A DNA stretch of 55,365 nt from Candidatus Faecimonas intestinavium (GTDB taxonomy: Bacteria; Bacillota_I; Bacilli_A; RF39; UBA660). Below are positions 3,762 through 11,828 of this stretch, piece by piece. The notes under the pieces are model-generated. The model had not been told where the DNA came from and searched no databases. It saw only the letters and a program-made list of their open reading frames with translations. The position numbers and the translations under genes were made by a program. Within the stretch, counting starts at the first letter, position 1. Each line of letters opens with the position of its first letter. The stretch lies in NCBI GenBank assembly GCA_018716045.1, contig DVKL01000005.1, positions 1 to 55,365 on the forward strand. The letters run 5' to 3'.

Positions 3762-4484
3762 CTACTTACGAACAGAAAATAATTTCTTTCGTTTACCATA
3801 ATAAACGTCTTCTACTTTCCGATAAACCACTTTATCCTGATCAAGAATCGTAAGAATAAACATTAAAACAACAATAATAAGAATAACTATGACTAAAAAA
3901 AGGGCAAAACTGAATTTTTCTTGTCTCGGAAGTGTAGTATCTAAATAACTATTTGTTAAATAAGTATTAAAATTATCATTAGTAATAACAACTTCATTTT
4001 CTGCAGGTACAAAATTAGTAATATTTTGAATTGCTAACTGTTTCAACTCATCATCTATAACAACTGGATAACCATAAACTTTCACTGGTTCAGGAACTTC
4101 AGTCGTTCTCTCATAAGTATAATCTATAATATCTTTATATTTAGAGTAATCATCTTCATCGATTGCTACCAAATAAGTATGCCACTGTCCAGTATCTTCT
4201 TCCTCAATAACAAAGTGAATCTCTTTCTTTGAATTTTCATAATAAGCAAATTTTTCACTCATCTTAGAAATAGTAATATAGGTATAATCCTCTACACTCT
4301 CCGCTTCACTCCAAGGCAGAACTTTTTCTTTTTCGTGATACAACTGATAAATGCAAACAACTAATATTGTAATAACTATCAAATAAATAAGACAAATAAA
4401 TGTCTTAAAAACAAGTCTTTTTTCATGGTGTTTTTCATGAATCGGATGATTTGAATTTTTCTTAACATTAAATATCTTCGTCAT
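3762..4484 (-). CDS. Hypothetical membrane protein with two TM helices flanking an extracellular domain
   Basis: Long ORF; start MTKIF chosen from the RBS; N- and C-terminal hydrophobic helices. Confidence 0.75.
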   Translation of the reverse strand: MTKIFNVKKNSNHPIHEKHHEKRLVFKTFICLIYLIVITILVVCIYQLYHEKEKVLPWSEAESVEDYTYITISKMSEKFAYYENSKKEIHFVIEEEDTGQWHTYLVAIDEDDYSKYKDIIDYTYERTTEVPEPVKVYGYPVVIDDELKQLAIQNITNFVPAENEVVITNDNFNTYLTNSYLDTTLPRQEKFSFALFLVIVILIIVVLMFILTILDQDKVVYRKVEDVYYGKRKKLFSVRK

Positions 4485-4544
4485 ATACTTCCCTCTATTA
4501 TATAATAACATAAAAAAATAGAATTAAATAATAAAAAAGACTAT

Positions 4545-5096
4545 TTAAATAAATAAATAGTCTGGCTTTTGATAAGTCTCATTATAATCCTTATCTTTCA
4601 TATACTTATCTACAAGAACAACTTGTTCTGCTTCTAAACTTTTAGGAACATCAATAATACGTTGATTTCTAGATCCTCTAAAATAAATATCATAGCTTTT
4701 CTCTTCTTGAAGAAATTTTCCATCTACCAAAACATCCACTTGATCAAGTAAACGTCTCATCTTTGGATTAAGTAACATTTGTTCATAGGTAAATCCCGTA
4801 TAACACCACACATTAAGTCCCATCTCATGTGCGGCTTTACTAATTTCATAGCAAGCATCAGCTTGACAAACTGGATCTCCTCCAGAAAGAGTAATACCGT
4901 CTTGATTTTTAAGTTTTTTTAACTCATTGATTACATCTTCTACTTCAATCAAAGCACCACCATCAAAATCCCAAGTACTAGCATTATGACAACCAGGGCA
5001 ATGATGTGGACATCCTTGTGTCCAAACAACCGTTCTTACTCCTTCTCCATCCACAATAGAGTCAGGCTGCAAATAAGCAGCCAACCTGATTTTCAT
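4545..5096 (-). CDS. nrdG: Anaerobic RNR activating enzyme (radical SAM), copy 1
   Basis: DSIVDGEGVR, QGCPHHCPGCHN (CxxxCxxC), GITLSGGDP, FRGSRNQR. Confidence 0.95.
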   Translation of the reverse strand: MKIRLAAYLQPDSIVDGEGVRTVVWTQGCPHHCPGCHNASTWDFDGGALIEVEDVINELKKLKNQDGITLSGGDPVCQADACYEISKAAHEMGLNVWCYTGFTYEQMLLNPKMRRLLDQVDVLVDGKFLQEEKSYDIYFRGSRNQRIIDVPKSLEAEQVVLVDKYMKDKDYNETYQKPDYLFI

Positions 5097-5100
5097 TTTT

Positions 5101-5262
5101 TTACTTATCCTCTTTCATAATTTCTTTTAATCCAGTATGTTTTACACGATCTCTTTCTTCAGCACGTTTACCATTATTAAATCTAGAAACATCACCTGCT
5201 AAATAACCTGTAACTCGTCTAATTCTTTCAAATTTTTGTCCTTCACCAATAATTTTTTCCAT
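5101..5262 (-). CDS. Stand-alone class III RNR glycyl-radical domain (53 aa)
   Basis: Manual translation MEKIIGEGQKFERIRRVTGYLAGDVSRFNNGKRAEERDRVKHTGLKEIMKEDK; RVTGYL radical loop and FN.GK..E..DRVKH tail; AGAGGAG RBS; below the ORF-track cutoff. Confidence 0.92.
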   Translation of the reverse strand: MEKIIGEGQKFERIRRVTGYLAGDVSRFNNGKRAEERDRVKHTGLKEIMKEDK

Positions 5263-5301
5263 AATAATTCTCCTCTTTTCTTTATTTATTATATATATAA
5301 A

Positions 5302-7623
5302 CTATTCACAACAACCTGTATCGATAGATGTAATCTTTTCCATTGGAACCCCTTCAAATTCATGACGTCCACATTTAGGGCATACATCATTAATAACTCC
5401 AACATAACCGCATACTGGATCACGATCTACTGGATGATTAACTGCACCATAGCCAAGTCCAGCTTCTTTCATAGCACGTACAACACTTTCAAATGCTTCA
5501 ACATTAGAAGCAGTATCTCCATCTAATTCAACATAAGAAATATGTCCACCGTTAGTTAATTCATGATATGGAGCTTCTTTTGCTAATTTATCATGAATAC
5601 TAATATGATAATAAACTGGAACATGGAATGAATTTGTGTAGTATTCTCTATCAGTAACACCTTTAATCTTTCCGTAGATTGCTCTATCAATAGAAGTAAA
5701 TCTACCAGCCAAACCTTCTGCAGGAGTAGCAAGGCAAGTAAAGTTCAAGTTATATTTCTTAGAGTTTTCATCACAACGTTTACGCATAAACTCAATAATT
5801 TCTAACCCTAACTTTTGACTTTCTTCACTTTCACCATGATGTTTACCAGTAAGTGCTTTCAAACATTCAGCAAGACCAATAAATCCGGTTGATAAAGTTC
5901 CATGTTTCCAAACTTTTCTAAGACGATCCGTTGGTTTCAATTTTTCACCATTTGTCCAAACCCCTTGTCCAAGTAAGAATGGGAAATTATAATTATGTTT
6001 ACTGCATTGAACTTCAAAACGTTCAAGTAATTGATCTCTTACCATATCCATAATCTCCCCAAGTTCTTGATAAAATCCTTTCATATCTGCTTTATCTCTT
6101 TCTTTCAAAGCAATACCATATTTAATTCCAAGTCTTGGTAAATTAATAGTCGTAAATGATAAGTTTCCACGTCCTGTAACAACCTCATTATCTGGAGAAG
6201 TAACATCTCCAATAACTCTAGTACGACATCCCATATAAGCAATTTCTGTATTAAAGTCCCCTTCTTTATAATATTTCTTGTTAAAAGGAGCATCAATAAA
6301 TGCAAAGTTAGGGAAAAGTCTTTTTGCAGAAACTTTGCAAGCTAACTTAAACAAATCATAATTAGGATCTTCCTTATTATAATTAACTCCTTCTTTTACT
6401 TTGAAAATTGATACTGGGAAAATTGGTGTCTCACCCTTTCCAAGTCCACGATCTTCAGAAAGTAAGAAGTTTCTGATTACCATTCTTCCTTCTGGAGTAG
6501 TATCCGTTCCAAAGTTAACAGATGAAAATGGTACTTGTGCACCGGCTCTAGAATGCATTGTATTTAAATTATGAATAAACGCTTCCATTGCTTGTTGTGT
6601 TGCACGTTCAGTCTTTTGTAAAGCCTTCTCATAACTTTTTTCGAAAATTTCATGAATCCTGCTTGATCCTTTTTGATAATCACTAAAATCTTCTACGTTA
6701 AGTTCAATAGATTCTGATTTATCAATTTCACGAATAATTCTATCAATATTAATCACAGGAATAAATCCTTCTAAATCTAGAAAATCATAAATTGTTTGCT
6801 TAAACTGTTTTTTAAATGTCTTTAACACACCAGGTGCTAAATAATAATCAAGCGCCGGAATTGCTTGGCCTCCATGTTGATCATTTTGATTAGCTTGGAC
6901 TGCGATACAAGCTAAAGAAGCATAAGTTGAAATATCTTGAGGTGGTCGAATATATCCGTGACCAGTATCAAATCCATTTTTAAATAATTTTGATAAATCG
7001 ATTTGACAACAAGTAGTAGTTCCCATAGCTAAGAAATCCATATCATGAATATGAATAGTTCCATTATCATGTGCTTCTGCATATTCTTTTTTCATTAAAT
7101 AAGCTTTTGCAAACTCTTTAGAAACTGTTCCACCATACTGTAACATTGTTCCCATTGGGCTATTACCATCAATATTAGCATTTTCTCTTTTAGCATCTTC
7201 ATCATTAGCAGATTTTAATCCTAAATTTTCTAATGATTTTAAAAACTTATGTGTTTTATTATCTCCAAAGAAACTTTCTCTTGACTGATTTCTTCTTTCT
7301 CTATATTCAGAAAAAGATTTATAAACATCATCATAACCCTTACTAGAAAGTTCTCCTTCGATATAATCTTGAATTTCTTCTATTTTAAATTTTTTATTTT
7401 TTTCTTCTGCGTCTTTTTCAATTTTCTTTAAAACTGCTTGATAAACTTTTTGAATATCTTGAGAAGTATACTTTCTTTCCTTCTCATCTTCTTCAGTATC
7501 TACTTCAACACTATCAAACCCCTTTTTGATAGCCAAAGCAATTTTTGCTCCATCAAAAGGAACTTTTTTACCATTTCTCTTTACTACAATTAGTTCCTCT
7601 AAAACGTCAGTTACCTCTGCCAT
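5302..7623 (-). CDS. nrdD: Class III RNR catalytic subunit, copy 1, lacking the C-terminal glycyl-radical domain
   Basis: ATP cone (VKRNG..VPFD), ENAN, IHIHDMD, TTTCCQ, YMGCRT, RGNLSFTTINLPR, ATPAEG, YYTNSFH, DPVC/CPKC Zn site; ends DTGCCE with no RxxGY. Confidence 0.95.
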   Translation of the reverse strand: MAEVTDVLEELIVVKRNGKKVPFDGAKIALAIKKGFDSVEVDTEEDEKERKYTSQDIQKVYQAVLKKIEKDAEEKNKKFKIEEIQDYIEGELSSKGYDDVYKSFSEYRERRNQSRESFFGDNKTHKFLKSLENLGLKSANDEDAKRENANIDGNSPMGTMLQYGGTVSKEFAKAYLMKKEYAEAHDNGTIHIHDMDFLAMGTTTCCQIDLSKLFKNGFDTGHGYIRPPQDISTYASLACIAVQANQNDQHGGQAIPALDYYLAPGVLKTFKKQFKQTIYDFLDLEGFIPVINIDRIIREIDKSESIELNVEDFSDYQKGSSRIHEIFEKSYEKALQKTERATQQAMEAFIHNLNTMHSRAGAQVPFSSVNFGTDTTPEGRMVIRNFLLSEDRGLGKGETPIFPVSIFKVKEGVNYNKEDPNYDLFKLACKVSAKRLFPNFAFIDAPFNKKYYKEGDFNTEIAYMGCRTRVIGDVTSPDNEVVTGRGNLSFTTINLPRLGIKYGIALKERDKADMKGFYQELGEIMDMVRDQLLERFEVQCSKHNYNFPFLLGQGVWTNGEKLKPTDRLRKVWKHGTLSTGFIGLAECLKALTGKHHGESEESQKLGLEIIEFMRKRCDENSKKYNLNFTCLATPAEGLAGRFTSIDRAIYGKIKGVTDREYYTNSFHVPVYYHISIHDKLAKEAPYHELTNGGHISYVELDGDTASNVEAFESVVRAMKEAGLGYGAVNHPVDRDPVCGYVGVINDVCPKCGRHEFEGVPMEKITSIDTGCCE

Positions 7624-7656
7624 TTTTTACCTCCCACATCTTTCTTTCATAAGTCC

Positions 7657-7685
7657 ATTGTAAGTAACAAAAATTCAAAAATCAA
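7657..7685 (-). promoter_or_regulatory. sigmaA-type promoter of nrdD copy 1
   Basis: TTGATT-17 nt-TACAAT upstream of a GGGAGG RBS. Confidence 0.6.
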
Positions 7686-7859
7686 TAGACAAAAATTAGA
7701 AATTTTACCCTCTTTTTCTAAAACTATTGATATATATAGATTTCCTCAAAAAACTTTTTTTGTTCGATTTACGACAATTTACAAAAGGTAGACATTTTTC
7801 AAAATAAAGAAAAATCGTTTTTTTTATTTTTTGAATTTTTTCTGTATTTATATTTATAT

Positions 7860-7879
7860 TTTGTTGATTTTTCAACAAA
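7860..7879. promoter_or_regulatory. Palindromic operator-like site upstream of nrdD copy 1
   Basis: TTTGTTGA-TTTT-TCAACAAA; same geometry as the 11138-11161 palindrome. Confidence 0.45.
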
Positions 7880-7955
7880 TATTAAGGTTATAAAAAAGGC
7901 TTTTTACGTTTTTTAAAAAAATCACTTTTGCTACTTCTTTGATTTTTTGCAATTT

Positions 7956-8408
7956 TTAATCAGTAGACCCAAAGCCACCAAGACGCTCTCCAGATGCATT
8001 ATCATCATCGGTAATTAAAAATTTTTGGAAAATAAGTTGTCCAATAACATCACCCTTTTTTACCTCAATATCATGATCACTACAATTAAAATAAGCAAAG
8101 TAAAAATGACCATCATTATCAGGATTACCATAATAATCAGAATCAATCAATCCAACACTATTAGCCATCAAAAACCCTTTTTTAGGTCCACTACTGCGAT
8201 TAAGCAATAAATAGCATTCATCTTCTCCACAATAAGCTTTTAATCCAGTAGGAATTAACGTTGGCTTAATACCAGGATAATATTTTGGAATAACAACATC
8301 TTCAGCAGCCTCTATATCATACCCTGCTGAATGTTGTGTCTTTCTCACTGGAATATGTATATCCTTATCCTCATAACCTTTTACTATTTCAAAACCTCTT
8401 TGTCTCAT
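7956..8408 (-). CDS. dut: Trimeric dUTPase
   Basis: SAGYDI, PTGLKA, RSS, NSVGLIDSDYY, RLGGFGST motifs. Confidence 0.95.
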   Translation of the reverse strand: MRQRGFEIVKGYEDKDIHIPVRKTQHSAGYDIEAAEDVVIPKYYPGIKPTLIPTGLKAYCGEDECYLLLNRSSGPKKGFLMANSVGLIDSDYYGNPDNDGHFYFAYFNCSDHDIEVKKGDVIGQLIFQKFLITDDDNASGERLGGFGSTD

Positions 8409-8410
8409 AA

Positions 8411-8953
8411 TTAAACTTCTCCTTCTATCATTTTACTATTATCAATATATAACACCTTTTTATCTTCTTTTAAACTTCTAGGAACATCAATAATTTCTTG
8501 ATTACTACTTCCTACATAATGAATTTTCTCACTTACTAGCTTTAAGACAAATTTACCATCAAGTAATACATCAATATGATGAAGTATCATATTTAAATCT
8601 TTATCATTTTCTTTTTCTCTTAGTAATTCATCATAACGATACCCAGTATATAACCATATTGTTTTATTAGGAAATTTGTCTCTAATCTCAACGACTAGTT
8701 CAGCAACCTCTCTACGATTACCCAAAAATAATGGGTCTCCACCTGATAAAGTAATTCCACTACACCAATCATGTTCTAGCTCATCAAAAATTTCTTTTTT
8801 AGCAGCATCATCAAACACTAACCCATCATCAGGATTCCAAGTAATTGCATTCTGACAGCCAGGGCATTGGTGAGAACAACCACTTACCCATAAAACTACA
8901 CGAAGTCCTTCTCCATTAAGCATATCTGCCTTAGTAATATTATGATATCTCAT
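8411..8953 (-). CDS. nrdG: Anaerobic RNR activating enzyme, copy 2
   Basis: DMLNGEGLRVVLWVSGCSHQCPGCQN, SGGDPL, GSSNQ. Confidence 0.95.
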   Translation of the reverse strand: MRYHNITKADMLNGEGLRVVLWVSGCSHQCPGCQNAITWNPDDGLVFDDAAKKEIFDELEHDWCSGITLSGGDPLFLGNRREVAELVVEIRDKFPNKTIWLYTGYRYDELLREKENDKDLNMILHHIDVLLDGKFVLKLVSEKIHYVGSSNQEIIDVPRSLKEDKKVLYIDNSKMIEGEV

Positions 8954-11086
8954 CTACATAGACTTCCTTTCAGAAATTTCAGCCATCTTAGCATTATTAA
9001 GCATCGTATCGCCATGAACCCTAGAATAAGACAAATACCCATTCATACGCTCTATCTTAGTAAGATCTGTACTACCACACTTTGGACAAACATCCATATC
9101 TAGTTCTTCATGACCACAATGATTACAATAAGATAATGATAAATTAACTCCTTCATAAAATCCTTTAGCCATAGCACGTTCAATATAAGTAACCATTGCT
9201 TTTGTATTATAGCTTAAATTATATCGAACATACTGAATTCTTCCGCCTCTAAATAAATCCCAAAACCTATCTTCTAAATCTTGTTTTTCTATTCCAGTAA
9301 TATCTTCCCATACTCCACAGTGAAAACTATTAGAAACATATTCACGAGAACTAACCCCAGGAATTACACCATACTTTTTACGGAACTGTTTAACTTGCAA
9401 TCCACACAAATTCTCAGCAGGTGTTCCATAAATTGCATATAAAATATGATCTTCTTTTTTAAACTCTGTAGTCTTTTGATTAATATATTTCATAACATCA
9501 AGTGCAAACTGTCCATCCTCAACAATACTCTTACCATTATATAATACTTGCAATTCATTTAAAGCAGTAATTCCAAAAGATGCCGTAGCGGCCTTCATAA
9601 TAGGCTCAATTGCATCATCTGGTTTTAAATTACCTCCGTAAAACCCTCCTTGACAATAAGCAAGCGGATTAGTAGATGCTTTTCGTTTTGCAAGATAACG
9701 ATAAGTTCTAATATGAATCTTACGAATCATTTCCAAATAATAATCAAGCACTTCATAAAAGTCTTTTTGTTCTTCACGAGCTTTGGCTAAAATCATTGGT
9801 AAATGTAATGAAATGGCACCGATATTAAATCTACCAATGAATACAGGTTTATCATTTTTATCAGCTGGCTCCATCCCACCTTTTTCATACCAAGGTGATA
9901 AAAATGCTCGACACCCCATAGGTGAAACAATTCTACCATATTTTTTATACATCTCTGGGACATAACCTTCTCCACTTAAAGATAAGTAATCTGGATACAT
10001 CGTTTTTTCACTACATTTGATAGCTGTAAGAAAACTATCACGAAGAATCCCACCTTCTCCATGAACTTTCTTATCATATAAAAATACAAGTTTTGGAAAC
10101 AAAGTCGGTCTCTTAAAACCTTTTTTTCCTTGGCCTTCACGATGTACATTCAAGATTGTTTTAGCAATCATTACTGCAAATTGATCAGTATCAACACCAA
10201 AAGTAAATGTTACGAATGGATAATCACCTCTACTAGAGCTAACGGTATTTAATTTATATTCAATACCCTGATAACCCTGTTCACACTCACGAATAGTTTT
10301 CTTCCAAGCATACTTATCTGCTTCATCTTTAAACTTACTCCCTTTAATATCTAGATACTCTTTATAATACATATCATAACTCATCTTTGCATATTTCTTT
10401 AACACAGTATCTACTTCAGGTACAGTAAATCCTCCATACTGCATAGCAGTAGTATTAATAATAACATCCCCCATTACATTAAAAGCAGTCTGTAATGTTT
10501 TAGGTTCTGTATACCAAATGTTACTCATTTCAAATCCATCTTTTAAGACATTAGCCATATCAAATAAACAACAATTCATCGTATCCCTTCGATAAGCCAT
10601 ATCATGAATATAAATATAACCATCTTTACAAGCTTCTATTTCATTAGCCGTTAAAAAGAATTTTTTATAAAGTTCCTTATTTAAACTATTATAAATTAAA
10701 CACCTTTGTGTTGTTACTAAAGCGCTATCCATATTAGAACATTCTTTATCCCCAATATAAGTAATTGCTTGTGCTCTCTTATAAACCTTATCTAAAATAT
10801 GAACAATTTCTTTCTTATAGTCACGATACTCCCGATAACTTTTAGCGACTAAGGGATTAATATCTTCTAGTGCAATTTCACAGCAACTATGTAATTGTTC
10901 TACAGTAGGGTTACTAGTCTGCGTATTTAGTAACTCTAATACTCTAGAGACAATTTTTTCCAATGCCTCATCGGTTAAATCAACCATAACTCGCTCGGCA
11001 CTTGCGATAACAGCCTTTTTAACTCTCTCTGGGTCAAATTTCTCTAAATTACCATTTTTTTTAATTACCATAATCTCTTTTGCCAT
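8954..11086 (-). CDS. nrdD: Class III RNR catalytic subunit, copy 2, full length
   Basis: ATP-cone-like N-terminus, IYIHDM, MNCCL, PMGCR, YGTPAE, NSFH, CNHC/CPKC, glycyl-radical loop ERMNGYL. Confidence 0.95.
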   Translation of the reverse strand: MAKEIMVIKKNGNLEKFDPERVKKAVIASAERVMVDLTDEALEKIVSRVLELLNTQTSNPTVEQLHSCCEIALEDINPLVAKSYREYRDYKKEIVHILDKVYKRAQAITYIGDKECSNMDSALVTTQRCLIYNSLNKELYKKFFLTANEIEACKDGYIYIHDMAYRRDTMNCCLFDMANVLKDGFEMSNIWYTEPKTLQTAFNVMGDVIINTTAMQYGGFTVPEVDTVLKKYAKMSYDMYYKEYLDIKGSKFKDEADKYAWKKTIRECEQGYQGIEYKLNTVSSSRGDYPFVTFTFGVDTDQFAVMIAKTILNVHREGQGKKGFKRPTLFPKLVFLYDKKVHGEGGILRDSFLTAIKCSEKTMYPDYLSLSGEGYVPEMYKKYGRIVSPMGCRAFLSPWYEKGGMEPADKNDKPVFIGRFNIGAISLHLPMILAKAREEQKDFYEVLDYYLEMIRKIHIRTYRYLAKRKASTNPLAYCQGGFYGGNLKPDDAIEPIMKAATASFGITALNELQVLYNGKSIVEDGQFALDVMKYINQKTTEFKKEDHILYAIYGTPAENLCGLQVKQFRKKYGVIPGVSSREYVSNSFHCGVWEDITGIEKQDLEDRFWDLFRGGRIQYVRYNLSYNTKAMVTYIERAMAKGFYEGVNLSLSYCNHCGHEELDMDVCPKCGSTDLTKIERMNGYLSYSRVHGDTMLNNAKMAEISERKSM

Positions 11087-11201: not shown

Positions 11202-11828
11202 ATGTCTAAAACTCTTGATGAAACAAGACTTTTACAATTCAAAAAAAATTTGTCAAACTGTGTCAATGTCAAACGTAAAACATTTTACAACAAAGATTTA
11301 ATTTTAAGTTATTCTCCGATAAAAAAGAAAATAGGTTTCATCACTTATGGAAAAGCAAATATAGTAAAAACAGATAGTAATGGTAATACAACAATCATGA
11401 GAGATTTAAAACAGAATGATATTTTTTCCAACCTTTTTTTTCAAGATTCAGAAGATGAAATATATATCATTAGTAATGAAGAAACAGAAGTAATATTTAT
11501 TGACTACTACACGATTTTAAAAAACTGCAATCAAGGATGCCCTTTTCATCATAAGTTAGTTCTAACATTATTCGACTTATTAATACTAGATAACAAACAA
11601 CAAAATGAGAAAATAGAACTATTATCGAAACGTACAGTAGAAGAAAAAATATTATTTTTCTTAAAGCAAAGAATGAATGAAAACAATATTTTTAAAGTAA
11701 CTACATCTTATAAAGCTATCGCAGAATATTTATTTGTAGATAGAGCTAACCTAATGAGAGAATTAAAAAAGATGGAAGAAAAAGGATTAATAGAAAAAAA
11801 TGAAAAGATGATTAAAATTAATGTCTAA
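11202..11828 (+). CDS. Crp/Fnr-family transcriptional regulator (HcpR-like)
   Basis: cNMP-fold N-terminus (G.A.IVKTD.NGN), C...C..H motif, LSKRTVEEKIL, HTH IAEYLFVDRANLMRELKKMEEKGLI. Confidence 0.88.
   Translation: MSKTLDETRLLQFKKNLSNCVNVKRKTFYNKDLILSYSPIKKKIGFITYGKANIVKTDSNGNTTIMRDLKQNDIFSNLFFQDSEDEIYIISNEETEVIFIDYYTILKNCNQGCPFHHKLVLTLFDLLILDNKQQNEKIELLSKRTVEEKILFFLKQRMNENNIFKVTTSYKAIAEYLFVDRANLMRELKKMEEKGLIEKNEKMIKINV

What the first reader, a model, noticed from the sequence alone, without database searches (positions are those of the whole stretch)
4545..7623. Split class III ribonucleotide reductase: glycyl-radical domain encoded as a separate 53-aa protein
Seen: NrdD1 (5302-7623) has the ATP cone, active-site Cys (YMGCRT) and Zn site but stops before the glycyl-radical loop. 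That loop and the conserved NrdD tail (FERIRRVTGYLAG...FNNGKRAEERDRVKH) are in an unannotated ORF 5101-5262 with its own AGAGGAG RBS, between nrdD and nrdG. The big subunit keeps a degenerate copy of the junction (EGVPMEKI versus EGQKFERI). Established: NrdG installs the radical on this Gly; O2 cleaves glycyl-radical enzymes there; pyruvate formate-lyase is repaired by the autonomous spare part YfiD/GrcA. Inference: an RNR whose O2-labile part is a cheap, replaceable subunit, so oxygen destroys about 50 aa rather than about 800. Short NrdD-like ORFs probably exist in other Firmicute annotations, but I know of no characterised in-trans RNR radical subunit.
Basis: partly seen in the sequence, partly recalled or inferred. 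Interest (0 to 1): 0.88.

Follow-up and report, generated by a model that had tools for sequence, protein, structure and literature searches.

The report
Two-piece anaerobic ribonucleotide reductase
This gut bacterium makes its oxygen-sensitive DNA-precursor enzyme in two pieces, with the short stretch that carries the radical encoded as its own 53-residue protein, an arrangement that is conserved in many gut anaerobes and that I did not find described in print.

Summary
On the minus strand lie nrdD-large (7623-5302, 773 aa), a TAG stop, a 39-nt spacer with AGAGGAG, a 53-aa ORF (5262-5101) and nrdG (5096-4545). nrdD-large has the ATP-cone, the barrel and the MGCRT Cys loop but no Gly loop. The small ORF carries the RRVTGYL glycyl-radical loop and the NrdD tail.

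It is not an assembly error, a read-through or a decaying gene.
- The split recurs in 20 of 21 genomes of the genus and in 24 of 61 genera sampled in the family.
- The two ORFs lie in different relative frames from species to species. Each small ORF has its own SD and ATG.
- dN/dS is about 0.10.
- In 17 of those 61 genomes the split enzyme is the only RNR homologue detected.

The same architecture occurs in Oscillospirales, Desulfovibrionaceae (Bilophila wadsworthia) and Succinivibrionaceae. Some of these genomes hold up to five extra unlinked copies of the small gene.

A co-fold supports docking (0.77 against 0.00 for controls). RNA-library contigs span the three genes.

Best reading: an obligate two-subunit class III RNR. 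That the small subunit is an exchangeable, oxygen-consumable part is plausible but untested. My literature searches found no description of it.

The parts
5302..7623 (-). nrdD-large: catalytic subunit of a class III RNR, 773 aa, ending in TAG. It has no glycyl-radical loop.
   Evidence: ORF. NRDD 1-533/562, PRK07111 3-715/746, 1009.7 bits; 4.1e-175 to Prevotella copri NrdD 8P23.
7288..7590 (-). ATP-cone (residues 12-112 of nrdD-large)
   Evidence: PF03477, 49.1 bits, cut-off 25.8.
6226..6228 (-). Codon of Cys466 in YMGCRT, the presumed thiyl-radical Cys on the finger loop
   Evidence: aligned with MGCRT of the P. copri enzyme. M464, G465 and C466 are invariant in 24 split orthologues; residues 465-467 touch the small chain in the co-fold.
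5371..5412 (-). Cys cluster of the ribbon (C738 ... C748-P-K-C751), kept on the large subunit
   Evidence: C738, C748 and C751 are invariant; aligned with the CxxC...CPKCG region of 8P23, with Asp735 in place of the first Cys.
5305..5355 (-). Tail of the large subunit: a degenerate second copy of the junction (EGVPMEKIT) followed by SIDTGCCE with a Cys-Cys pair
   Evidence: both this tail and the small ORF's FERIRRVT align to the same P. copri segment; the tail is conserved; residues 755-762 and 764 touch the small chain.
5263..5301 (-). Intercistronic spacer with the Shine-Dalgarno sequence AGAGGAG at 5270-5276
   Evidence: the spacer is 32-44 nt in 20 species, with GAGGAG-like SD kept and length differences that are not multiples of three.
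5101..5262 (-). Small subunit, 53 aa plus stop: glycyl-radical loop (RRVTGYL; Gly19 codon at 5206-5208) and the conserved NrdD C-terminal tail
   Evidence: 19 invariant columns in 24 orthologues, including R15, R16, T18, G19, Y20 and L21; dN/dS 0.098.
4545..5096 (-). nrdG, radical-SAM activase, 183 aa, starting 4 nt after the small ORF's stop
   Evidence: TIGR02491 157.3 bits; Fer4_12 and Radical_SAM domains.
4417..7626 (-). Extent of one contig from an RNA library that covers all three genes without a gap
   Evidence: run X15, record 9. Contigs of four runs from four studies stop at 7621-7648.

Best explanation
This is a working class III (anaerobic) ribonucleotide reductase built from two polypeptides instead of one.

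The 773-aa NrdD-large carries the ATP-cone, the barrel with the catalytic Cys loop (Cys466) and the Cys-rich ribbon. The 53-aa protein carries the glycine (Gly19 in RRVTGYL) on which NrdG, encoded directly downstream, installs the radical with S-adenosylmethionine.

The three genes are read as one operon, and each cistron has its own ribosome-binding site. The small protein docks into the barrel where the C-terminus of a fused NrdD sits. This puts Gly19 next to Cys466 so that the radical can pass to the substrate site. The M-G-C motif suggests formate as reductant (recalled, not tested).

What is shown: the gene architecture, its conservation, purifying selection, and its being the only RNR homologue detected in many relatives.

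What is inferred: assembly, activation of the free or docked peptide by NrdG, and catalysis.

The split most likely arose by duplication of the 3' end of a fused nrdD, because the large subunit still keeps a degenerate copy of the junction. I think it more likely than not that the small subunit can exchange, so that an oxygen-cleaved peptide is replaced without remaking the large subunit. That step is inference only.
For: 1. Clean division of the family profile between the two ORFs.

2. Conservation.
- The peptide lies in a short frame of 56-70 aa in 20 of 21 genomes of the genus (G000 included) and in 3 other genera. It is fused in 5 more distant genomes.
- 24 of 61 family genomes (about one per genus) have the split. 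23 were fetched and all show the order large then small. nrdG lies directly downstream in 21 of 23.

3. Not recoding.
- The small ORF is in a different frame from the large one in 11 of 23 loci. Several of the 12 same-frame loci have 2-3 stops between the ORFs.
- In the family loci the gap between the two ORFs runs from 21 nt down to an overlap of 17 nt. Each small ORF has an SD and a start codon.

4. Selection.
- dN/dS is 0.098 for the small ORF (20 species, 190 pairs) against 0.097 for the adjoining end of the large gene.
- Catalytic residues C205, N370, M464 and C466 are invariant in 24 split large subunits.

5. Necessity. In 17 of 61 family genomes (81-96% complete) the split pair is the only PF13597 match and there is no PF02867 match.

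6. Docking. The co-fold scored 0.77 (runs 0.63, 0.77, 0.77) against a best control of 0.00. That mark was reached by 58 of 80 solved complexes and 2 of 110 mismatched pairs. The runs agree in at least 80% of contacts and partner pLDDT is at least 71. The interface includes residues 465-467.

7. Expression hint. Contigs from RNA libraries of four studies cover the operon, and one spans all three genes.

8. Breadth. 60 of the 80 best GTDB loci have a small ORF next to a truncated nrdD. These include Succinivibrio dextrinosolvens DSM 3072, Acutalibacter caecimuris and Scatolibacter rhodanostii. Bilophila wadsworthia has the same pairing at a separately fetched locus (L170).

9. For exchangeability.
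- Bilophila wadsworthia has 1 large gene and 6 small ones. Desulfovibrio falkowii has 1 and 4, a Succinatimonas MAG 1 and 3, and two relatives of the window's organism 1 and 2.
- The solved P. copri enzyme shows the radical domain to be mobile and disordered with dATP (passages of PMC11226230).
Against: - No protein, radical or activity was measured.
- The co-fold pass may come from the model's memory of fused NrdD structures, as the tool warns.
- RNA-library contigs cannot prove transcription, a single transcript or translation of the small ORF.
- This genome also has a complete fused nrdD2-nrdG2 next door (8411-11086). Here the split enzyme is therefore not demonstrably needed.
- I found only one small gene in G000.
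- The 'only RNR' argument rests on two Pfam searches of incomplete genomes of about 1 Mb. Such organisms might also salvage deoxynucleosides.
- One genome of the genus (G014, 92% complete) shows no NrdD at all.
- In 2 of 23 family loci no nrdG was found downstream.
- Fused and split forms are interleaved in the trees. The split has therefore been reversed or re-invented, which also fits a nearly neutral trait.
Confidence: 0.85

Rival explanations
1. The split is functional but selectively neutral. A duplication of the 3' end followed by decay of the resident copy locked in a two-gene enzyme (constructive neutral evolution). The small subunit stays bound for the life of the complex and brings no repair or economy benefit.
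For: The large subunit keeps a vestigial copy of the junction, as expected from duplication and decay. Fused and split orthologues are interleaved, with at least 3 changes of state forced by well-supported branches, and again in the FastTree of 104 rows. This suggests easy switching between two states that both work. The window's genome has only one small gene.
Against: Extra unlinked small genes stand against a single large gene in five genomes examined. A sizeable family of free-standing NrdD-type radical-loop proteins occurs in genomes with a fused NrdD. Both are hard to explain without some use for surplus radical loops. The split is kept across several phyla of gut anaerobes.
Confidence: 0.35
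2. One fused protein is made after all, by stop-codon read-through, frameshifting, ribosome hopping or protein splicing across the gap.
For: In this window the two ORFs are in the same frame with one TAG between them. They are in the same frame in 12 of 23 loci.
Against: 11 of 23 loci have the ORFs in different frames. Several same-frame loci have 2-3 stops of different kinds between them. In the family loci the gap between the ORFs runs from 21 nt to an overlap of 17 nt. An SD and a start codon are conserved before every small ORF. The flanking pieces (about 10-45 and 5-25 residues) are far too short for a split intein. Pfam finds no intein domain.
Confidence: 0.03
3. The split copy is a broken, inactive paralogue, and the neighbouring fused nrdD2-nrdG2 does the work in this organism.
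For: A complete fused NrdD2 (710 aa, NRDD positions 1-560 of 562) with its own NrdG2 lies directly upstream.
Against: dN/dS is about 0.10 on both pieces. Catalytic residues are invariant. The split pair is the only RNR homologue detected in 17 of 61 family genomes. RNA-library contigs cover it.
Confidence: 0.04
4. The stop is a sequencing or assembly artefact.
For: None beyond the prior chance of a single-base error.
Against: The same architecture recurs in 20 of 21 genomes of the genus and in dozens of independent assemblies. Contigs of three RNA-library runs (X14, X15, X17) bridge the junction, with no listed indel between 4400 and 7621.
Confidence: 0.01

Closest known systems
Canonical single-chain class III RNR NrdD with NrdG (Prevotella copri 8P23, phage T4 1H78, E. 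coli)
   Same: Same family and domain order: ATP-cone, barrel, MGCRT Cys loop, Cys ribbon, RxxGY loop, conserved tail and an adjacent activase. E = 4.1e-175 to 8P23. Fused orthologues 64-68% identical occur in the same bacterial family.
   Different: The last ~35 conserved residues, with the radical glycine, are a separate gene product. The large chain ends in a degenerate junction copy plus an often Cys-rich tail that the fused orthologues examined lack.
GrcA/YfiD of E. coli and Y06I of phage T4: autonomous glycyl-radical 'spare parts' for pyruvate formate-lyase
   Same: A small stand-alone protein carries the RVxGY radical loop of a glycyl-radical enzyme and is presumably activated by that enzyme's activase. 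It fills the place of the enzyme's C-terminus. Source: passages of PMC8683613 and PMC13450708.
   Different: GrcA is a homologue of the PFL C-terminus. This peptide matches NRDD only. GrcA backs up an enzyme that has its own glycine. Here the large subunit has none, so the peptide is obligatory. GrcA is about 127 aa (recalled); this peptide is 53 aa. [quoted passage not shown]
Split class II RNR NrdJa/NrdJb (Pseudomonas aeruginosa; also Thermus phage phiYS40)
   Same: An RNR catalytic chain is encoded as two consecutive ORFs that must assemble. The C-terminal piece carries Cys-rich or ribbon elements. Source: passages of PMC9669993 and PMC3653736, and the search listing of PMC4520616.
   Different: A different class (B12-dependent, no glycyl radical). 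The split point is different, and the second piece is a large folded domain rather than a ~50-aa radical carrier.
Phage nrdD genes interrupted by group I introns or homing-endonuclease genes (T4 and relatives)
   Same: nrdD coding sequence in pieces. Passages of PMC3653736 report 6 split nrdD among 128 phage genomes.
   Different: Those are interrupted by mobile elements and mostly restored by splicing. Here there is no intron, intein or endonuclease, only a 2-44-nt spacer (or a short overlap) with a ribosome-binding site.
Free-standing NrdD-type radical-loop proteins of 87-111 aa found here (an example is named by NCBI 'anaerobic ribonucleoside-triphosphate reductase', Tannockella kyphosi)
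   Same: The same NrdD-type loop and tail (FERIRRITGYLVGT.DRFN..K..E..RVKH) as a small separate protein.
   Different: They have an extra ~50-residue N-terminal domain. They lie away from nrdD. In 10 of 11 cases they occur in genomes that also show a long-frame (fused) NrdD match. They look like true spares rather than obligatory subunits. Pfam and NCBIfam have no family of their own for them.

Membership tests
Class III ribonucleotide reductase (NrdD) | NRDD catalytic domain matched above the curated cut-off | tested here: met
   PF13597 634 bits (cut-off 26.2). PRK07111 1009.7 bits (cut-off 764).
Class III ribonucleotide reductase (NrdD) | Catalytic Cys on the finger loop, plus the second Cys and the Asn of the active site | tested here: met
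   MGCRT, TCCQ and FSSVNFGTD align with the P. copri enzyme. C205, N370 and C466 are invariant in 24 orthologues. The roles of these residues are recalled from the T4 and E. coli literature.
Class III ribonucleotide reductase (NrdD) | C-terminal glycyl-radical loop (RxxGY) on the same polypeptide | tested here: not met
   the large protein stops at profile position 533 of 562 and has no GY loop. The loop is on the separate 53-aa protein (profile positions 531-562). The feature is met only in trans.
Class III ribonucleotide reductase (NrdD) | Four-Cys metal site before the radical loop | tested here: inconclusive
   three Cys (738, 748, 751) are invariant. Asp735 stands where the first Cys of P. 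copri NrdD lies. Fused relatives share this.
Class III ribonucleotide reductase (NrdD) | Dedicated radical-SAM activase NrdG encoded alongside | tested here: met
   TIGR02491 157.3 bits (cut-off 126.1); downstream in 21 of 23 family loci.
Class III ribonucleotide reductase (NrdD) | Glycyl radical formed and NTPs reduced under anoxia | not testable with these tools
   Needs EPR and an activity assay.
GrcA/YfiD autonomous glycyl-radical cofactor | Homology to the C-terminus of pyruvate formate-lyase (Gly_radical domain) | tested here: not met
   the 53-aa protein matches only NRDD/NrdD models. No PFL or GrcA model appears at E <= 0.01.
GrcA/YfiD autonomous glycyl-radical cofactor | Backs up a host enzyme that has its own radical glycine | tested here: not met
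   NrdD-large has no Gly loop. The neighbouring fused NrdD2 belongs to another subfamily. The large subunit of the split enzyme shares only about 25-30% identity with fused NrdDs of other subfamilies in the same bacterial family. I did not align NrdD2 itself.
GrcA/YfiD autonomous glycyl-radical cofactor | Restores activity to an oxygen-cleaved enzyme | not testable with these tools
   Needs biochemistry.
Split intein / trans-spliced protein | Intein N- and C-fragments flanking the break | tested here: not met
   no intein domain; the flanking extensions are 10-45 and 5-25 residues, too short.

The most novel reading that the evidence does not exclude
The radical-bearing piece of the anaerobic RNR has become a consumable, exchangeable subunit. 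NrdG charges free 50-60-residue peptides. These dock into a long-lived catalytic subunit and are swapped out after oxygen cleaves them or when dATP loosens the radical domain.

The split enzyme, the extra unlinked small genes (up to five beside the operon copy in Bilophila wadsworthia) and the free-standing N-domain plus radical-loop proteins in genomes with a fused NrdD would then be three stages of one spare-part system for DNA-precursor synthesis. This would extend the GrcA principle from formate lyases to ribonucleotide reductase in gut anaerobes that meet oxygen episodically.
Probability: 0.35. Interest if true: 0.9.

Novelty: new variant of a known kind. Interest (0 to 1): 0.8.

Why it matters
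Class III RNR is the only route to DNA precursors in many strict anaerobes, and oxygen destroys it by cutting the chain at the radical glycine.

A natural enzyme in which that glycine sits on a separate ~50-residue protein makes several questions directly testable:
- Can the activase charge a free peptide?
- Does the radical loop have to leave the barrel to be activated?
- Can an oxygen-damaged reductase be repaired by swapping a part, as GrcA does for pyruvate formate-lyase?

Reviews up to 2026 state that spare parts are known only for formate lyases.

The split form is common in gut bacteria. These include cultured species such as Bilophila wadsworthia, Succinivibrio dextrinosolvens and Acutalibacter, so experiments are feasible.

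It also matters for annotation. The small ORFs have no family model of their own, and truncated nrdD genes could be mistaken for pseudogenes.

Tried and rejected
Read-through of the single in-frame TAG was considered because the two ORFs share a frame in this window. I rejected it after comparing 23 loci.

A split intein was rejected on the size of the flanks and the absence of a domain.

I suspected an NrdR box in the palindrome-like CTATATATATCAATAG upstream of nrdD-large. No NrdR gene was found in the genome, and I did not pursue it.

The careful ML tree did not finish within the time limit, so only the quick IQ-TREE tree was obtained. The larger tree is FastTree only. In one search twelve distant paralogue loci (L057-L068) were mislabelled by my regular expression, and I dropped them. 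Split or fused labels rest on motif searches, not on inspection of every locus.

Whether the split arose once with later re-fusions, arose several times, or spread by recombination of the 3' module remains open.

The second protein-collection search was limited to the poorly conserved N-terminal 55 residues of a free-standing protein. It found only that protein and one other, so it says nothing about the size of that family. The profile search does.

The phage collection gave 7 weak matches. Six are short unannotated records and one is a full-length phage NrdD. This gives no information about phage-borne small subunits.

Of 12 regions fetched, my motif search recovered a radical-loop ORF in 9. 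L162, L163 and L169 gave none and I did not look further. The tenth row of alignment A3 is L151.

In one search my motif found no ORF in L176, so only 3 of the 4 Desulfovibrio falkowii small ORFs were read.

In one search some bins had no cover in some runs (7676-7900 in X14, X17 and X18; 4985-5218 in X18).

Supplementary files of papers were closed and not requested.

Literature searches for a described split or in-trans class III RNR found none: with passages read. Subscription-only papers are not covered.

Full report
WHAT IS THERE. On the minus strand the window holds these features:
- a 773-aa ORF (7623-5302) that ends in TAG;
- 39 nt of A+T-rich spacer with AGAGGAG seven bases before an ATG;
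- a 53-aa ORF (5262-5101);
- four bases later, a 183-aa ORF (5096-4545).

Pfam and NCBIfam divide one family between the first two. The large protein has an ATP-cone and NRDD positions 1-533 of 562 (PRK07111 positions 3-715 of 746). The small one has NRDD positions 531-562 (PRK07111 710-744), which is the RRVTGYL radical loop and the conserved tail. The third ORF is NrdG.

The large protein keeps the MGCRT Cys loop and the other active-site residues. These align with the solved Prevotella copri enzyme (E = 4.1e-175).

The peptide is the loop and tail only. The Cys ribbon that is usually counted as part of the radical domain stays on the large chain.

NOT AN ARTEFACT AND NOT READ-THROUGH. In this window the two ORFs share a frame with one TAG between them, so I took read-through seriously.
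- The peptide lies in a short frame (56-70 aa) in 20 of 21 genomes of the genus and in three other genera. It is part of a 614-796-aa frame in five more distant genomes.
- Across 23 such loci the small ORF is in the same frame as the large one in 12 and in another frame in 11. Several same-frame loci have two or three stops between the ORFs.
- Within the genus the spacer is 32-44 nt, with length differences that are not multiples of three. A GAGGAG-like site and an ATG are always kept.
- In other genera the gap between the two ORFs runs from 21 nt down to an overlap of 17 nt.

These are two cistrons.

CONSERVATION, SELECTION, NECESSITY.
- In 61 genomes of the family (about one per genus), 24 have the split. 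I fetched the other 23. All have the order large then small, and nrdG follows directly in 21.
- Nine fused orthologues 62-69% identical to the large subunit occur in other genera of the same family.
- Among 20 species of the genus, dN/dS is 0.098 for codons 1-47 of the small ORF and 0.097 for the last 176 codons of the large gene (190 pairs, not independent).
- In 24 small proteins 19 columns are invariant, including R15, R16, T18, G19, Y20 and L21.
- In 24 large proteins C205, N370, M464 and C466 are invariant.
- In 17 of the 61 genomes (81-96% complete) the split pair is the only match to the NRDD model. Only 1 of 61 genomes matches the class I/II model PF02867, and it is not one of the 17.

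Points against: these are incomplete small genomes. One genome of the genus (G014, 92% complete) shows no NrdD at all. The window's own genome also has a complete fused nrdD2-nrdG2-dut block directly upstream (8408-11086).

WIDER DISTRIBUTION.
- The protein collection holds 1732 homologues of 29-93 aa. Some must be fragments at contig ends, but many sit on long contigs.
- Of the 80 best loci in one-genome-per-species GTDB contigs, 60 have a small ORF next to a truncated nrdD. In 47 of these nrdG lies within 1 kb. A further 7 have a small ORF with no nrdD in 2.3 kb upstream, 6 have too little upstream sequence, and 7 are fused.
- This set is biased, because it was drawn with the split peptides as query.
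- The record titles place the nearest ones among uncultured gut Bacilli, 'Tenericutes', Mycoplasmatota and Candidatus Onthousia.
- Others are Oscillospirales (Acutalibacter caecimuris, Scatolibacter rhodanostii), Desulfovibrionaceae (Bilophila wadsworthia ATCC 49260, Mailhella, Desulfovibrio) and Succinivibrionaceae (Succinivibrio dextrinosolvens DSM 3072, Succinatimonas, Anaerobiospirillum).
- In an even sample of 400 genomes of the phylum as the tool defines it, split-type frames were seen only in the window's family: 4 of 16 genomes plus the window's own.

THE JUNCTION.
- Fused orthologues read CPGCGRTE.DGV.FERIRRITGYL.
- Split ones read CP.CGR...EG[VIL]..E[KR][IL]... then a stop on the large chain, and M...GEGV.FERIRRITGYL on the small one.
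- Both the large chain's EGVPMEKIT and the small chain's FERIRRVT align with the same segment of the P. copri enzyme.

The junction is thus present twice. This points to a duplication of the 3' end followed by decay of the resident copy, rather than a simple stop-and-start insertion.

The large chain's tail is often Cys-rich. In 38 of 60 pairs there are two or more Cys in the last 12 residues of the large chain (33) or the small chain (11). In one genus the large chain lacks the pair and the small one ends in PCGCCK. I have no explanation for this tail.

TREES.
- In the quick ML tree of 38 large or fused sequences, 20 split forms make one clade (support 98).
- Four others lie beside fused forms. 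L031 pairs with L052 (support 100) and L049 with L069 (support 99).
- Well-supported branches force at least three changes of state. The careful search did not finish.
- A FastTree of 104 rows shows the same interleaving, also among Clostridia.

Since all split forms share the duplicated junction, I favour one origin with re-fusions, or exchange of the 3' module, over repeated invention. This is not settled.

ASSEMBLY AND EXPRESSION.
- A co-fold of residues 140-773 of the large chain with the small chain (alignments of 24 rows each) scored 0.77 (runs 0.63, 0.77, 0.77). The best of three controls scored 0.00.
- That mark was reached by 58 of 80 solved complexes and 2 of 110 mismatched pairs. 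The runs agree in at least 80% of contacts, and partner pLDDT is at least 71.
- The interface includes residues 465-467 of the Cys loop, barrel strands 670-677 and 697-701, and the tail 755-764.
- As the tool warns, halves of a protein whose fused form is solved can pass from memory. The result shows likeness, not binding.
- 19 public runs from 11 studies hold the stretch, and 6 of them are RNA libraries.
- Contigs of four RNA libraries from four studies cover the operon. One (X15) runs from 4417 to 7626 across all three genes. X14, X15 and X17 bridge the junction. The contigs of all four stop at 7621-7648, just before the nrdD start. No indel is listed between 4400 and 7621.
- Contigs cannot prove transcription or a single transcript.

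SURPLUS RADICAL LOOPS ELSEWHERE. Five genomes whose small ORF had no neighbouring nrdD were searched whole.
- Bilophila wadsworthia has one truncated nrdD with an adjacent small ORF and five more unlinked small ORFs.
- Desulfovibrio falkowii has one and four.
- A Succinatimonas MAG has one and three.
- Two relatives of the window's organism have one and two.

Separately, 11 genomes of the Bacilli sample carry an ORF in a frame of 92-123 aa that matches the peptide profile, away from nrdD. Ten of the 11 also show a long-frame (fused) NrdD match in the same search. In the 9 that I could read, the protein is a ~50-residue N-terminal domain plus the NrdD-type loop and tail.

A profile of ten such proteins finds 2612 cluster representatives at E <= 0.001. 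All of the best 150 are 52-236 aa long. Neither Pfam nor NCBIfam has a model for them beyond NrdD itself. NCBI names one 'anaerobic ribonucleoside-triphosphate reductase'.

MECHANISM. I commit to an obligate heteromeric class III RNR (confidence 0.85). NrdG makes the radical on Gly19 of the small protein. That protein occupies the slot of the missing C-terminus, so that the radical reaches Cys466.

Why it is split is less sure.
- oxygen cleaves these enzymes at the radical glycine (established; passages);
- the radical domain of the P. copri enzyme becomes disordered with dATP and behaves as a rigid mobile body;
- the surplus small genes described above.

A neutral duplication-and-decay origin with a permanently bound subunit explains the vestigial junction and the easy reversals equally well. 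I put the consumable reading at about 0.35-0.4.

WHAT IS KNOWN.
- Split class II RNR (NrdJa/NrdJb) is characterised.
- Phage nrdD genes interrupted by introns or endonuclease genes are catalogued.
- GrcA/YfiD and T4 Y06I are the only validated spare parts, both for pyruvate formate-lyase. Their authors speculate that others may exist.

Seven full-text searches found no description of a class III RNR with its radical loop in trans. The library lacks most subscription papers, and supplements were closed, so an earlier mention cannot be excluded.

VERDICT. This is a real, conserved and apparently undescribed subunit architecture of a well-known enzyme. It is a new variant of a known kind, of high interest to the RNR and glycyl-radical fields, and directly testable.

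Noticed in passing
window 7956-11086 (minus strand): A second, complete class III RNR operon lies directly upstream of the split one. It holds a fused nrdD2 (8954-11086, 710 aa, with its own RMNGYLSY loop), nrdG2 (8411-8953) and a dUTPase (7956-8408). The organism therefore has two anaerobic reductases of different subfamilies in tandem.
   Followed up: partly
L158-L161, L164-L168, L151 (for example L158:3064-3324, minus strand): A family of free-standing proteins of 87-111 aa: a ~50-residue N-terminal domain (V.V.NG..E.E...Y...DG.FVD..Y) plus an NrdD-type radical loop and tail. They are encoded away from nrdD, in genomes that mostly also show a fused NrdD match. They are candidate true spare parts for class III RNR. 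All of the best 150 cluster representatives found with the profile are short, and neither Pfam nor NCBIfam has a model of its own for them.
   Followed up: partly
L170-L174 and L123 (Bilophila wadsworthia); L175, L177, L178; L179, L180; L181; L182: Several unlinked paralogues of the small radical-loop gene stand against a single truncated nrdD. Bilophila wadsworthia has six small ORFs in all, three of them near-identical (MELIDHMPVT...). Desulfovibrio falkowii has four, Succinatimonas three, and two relatives of the window's organism two each. I did not check whether the extra copies sit on mobile elements.
   Followed up: partly
window 5305-5328 and the tails in L029-L051, L078-L157: There is a Cys-rich C-terminal tail (CCE, C.C, CC.K) on the large subunit of many split enzymes. 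In 38 of 60 pairs there are two or more Cys in the last 12 residues of the large or the small chain. In one genus the pair has moved to the end of the small protein (PCGCCK). The fused orthologues examined lack it. Its function is unknown: a metal ligand or a redox pair are guesses.
   Followed up: partly
L031/L052, L049/L069 and the trees: Split and fused orthologues are interleaved in the trees, with sister pairs at 99-100 support. The state has changed at least three times, or the 3' module has been exchanged by recombination.
   Followed up: partly
window 5410-5421 (Asp735 to Cys738): In this NrdD subfamily, fused members included, an invariant Asp stands where the first Cys of the four-Cys metal site lies in the P. 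copri enzyme.
   Followed up: no
window 11202-11828 (plus strand): A 208-aa protein with a weak Crp-like helix-turn-helix match (just below the Pfam cut-off) is encoded divergently from nrdD2. It may be an FNR-type regulator of the anaerobic reductase genes. No NrdR gene was found in the genome.
   Followed up: no
window 7725-7745 (minus strand): A palindrome-like CTATATATATCAATAG lies about 110 nt upstream of the nrdD-large start, in a 330-nt intergenic region. RNA-library contigs of three of four runs have no cover there.
   Followed up: no
G014 (same genus, 92% complete): No match to either the class III or the class I/II RNR model was found in this genome. This is either an assembly gap or an organism that depends on salvage.
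   Followed up: no
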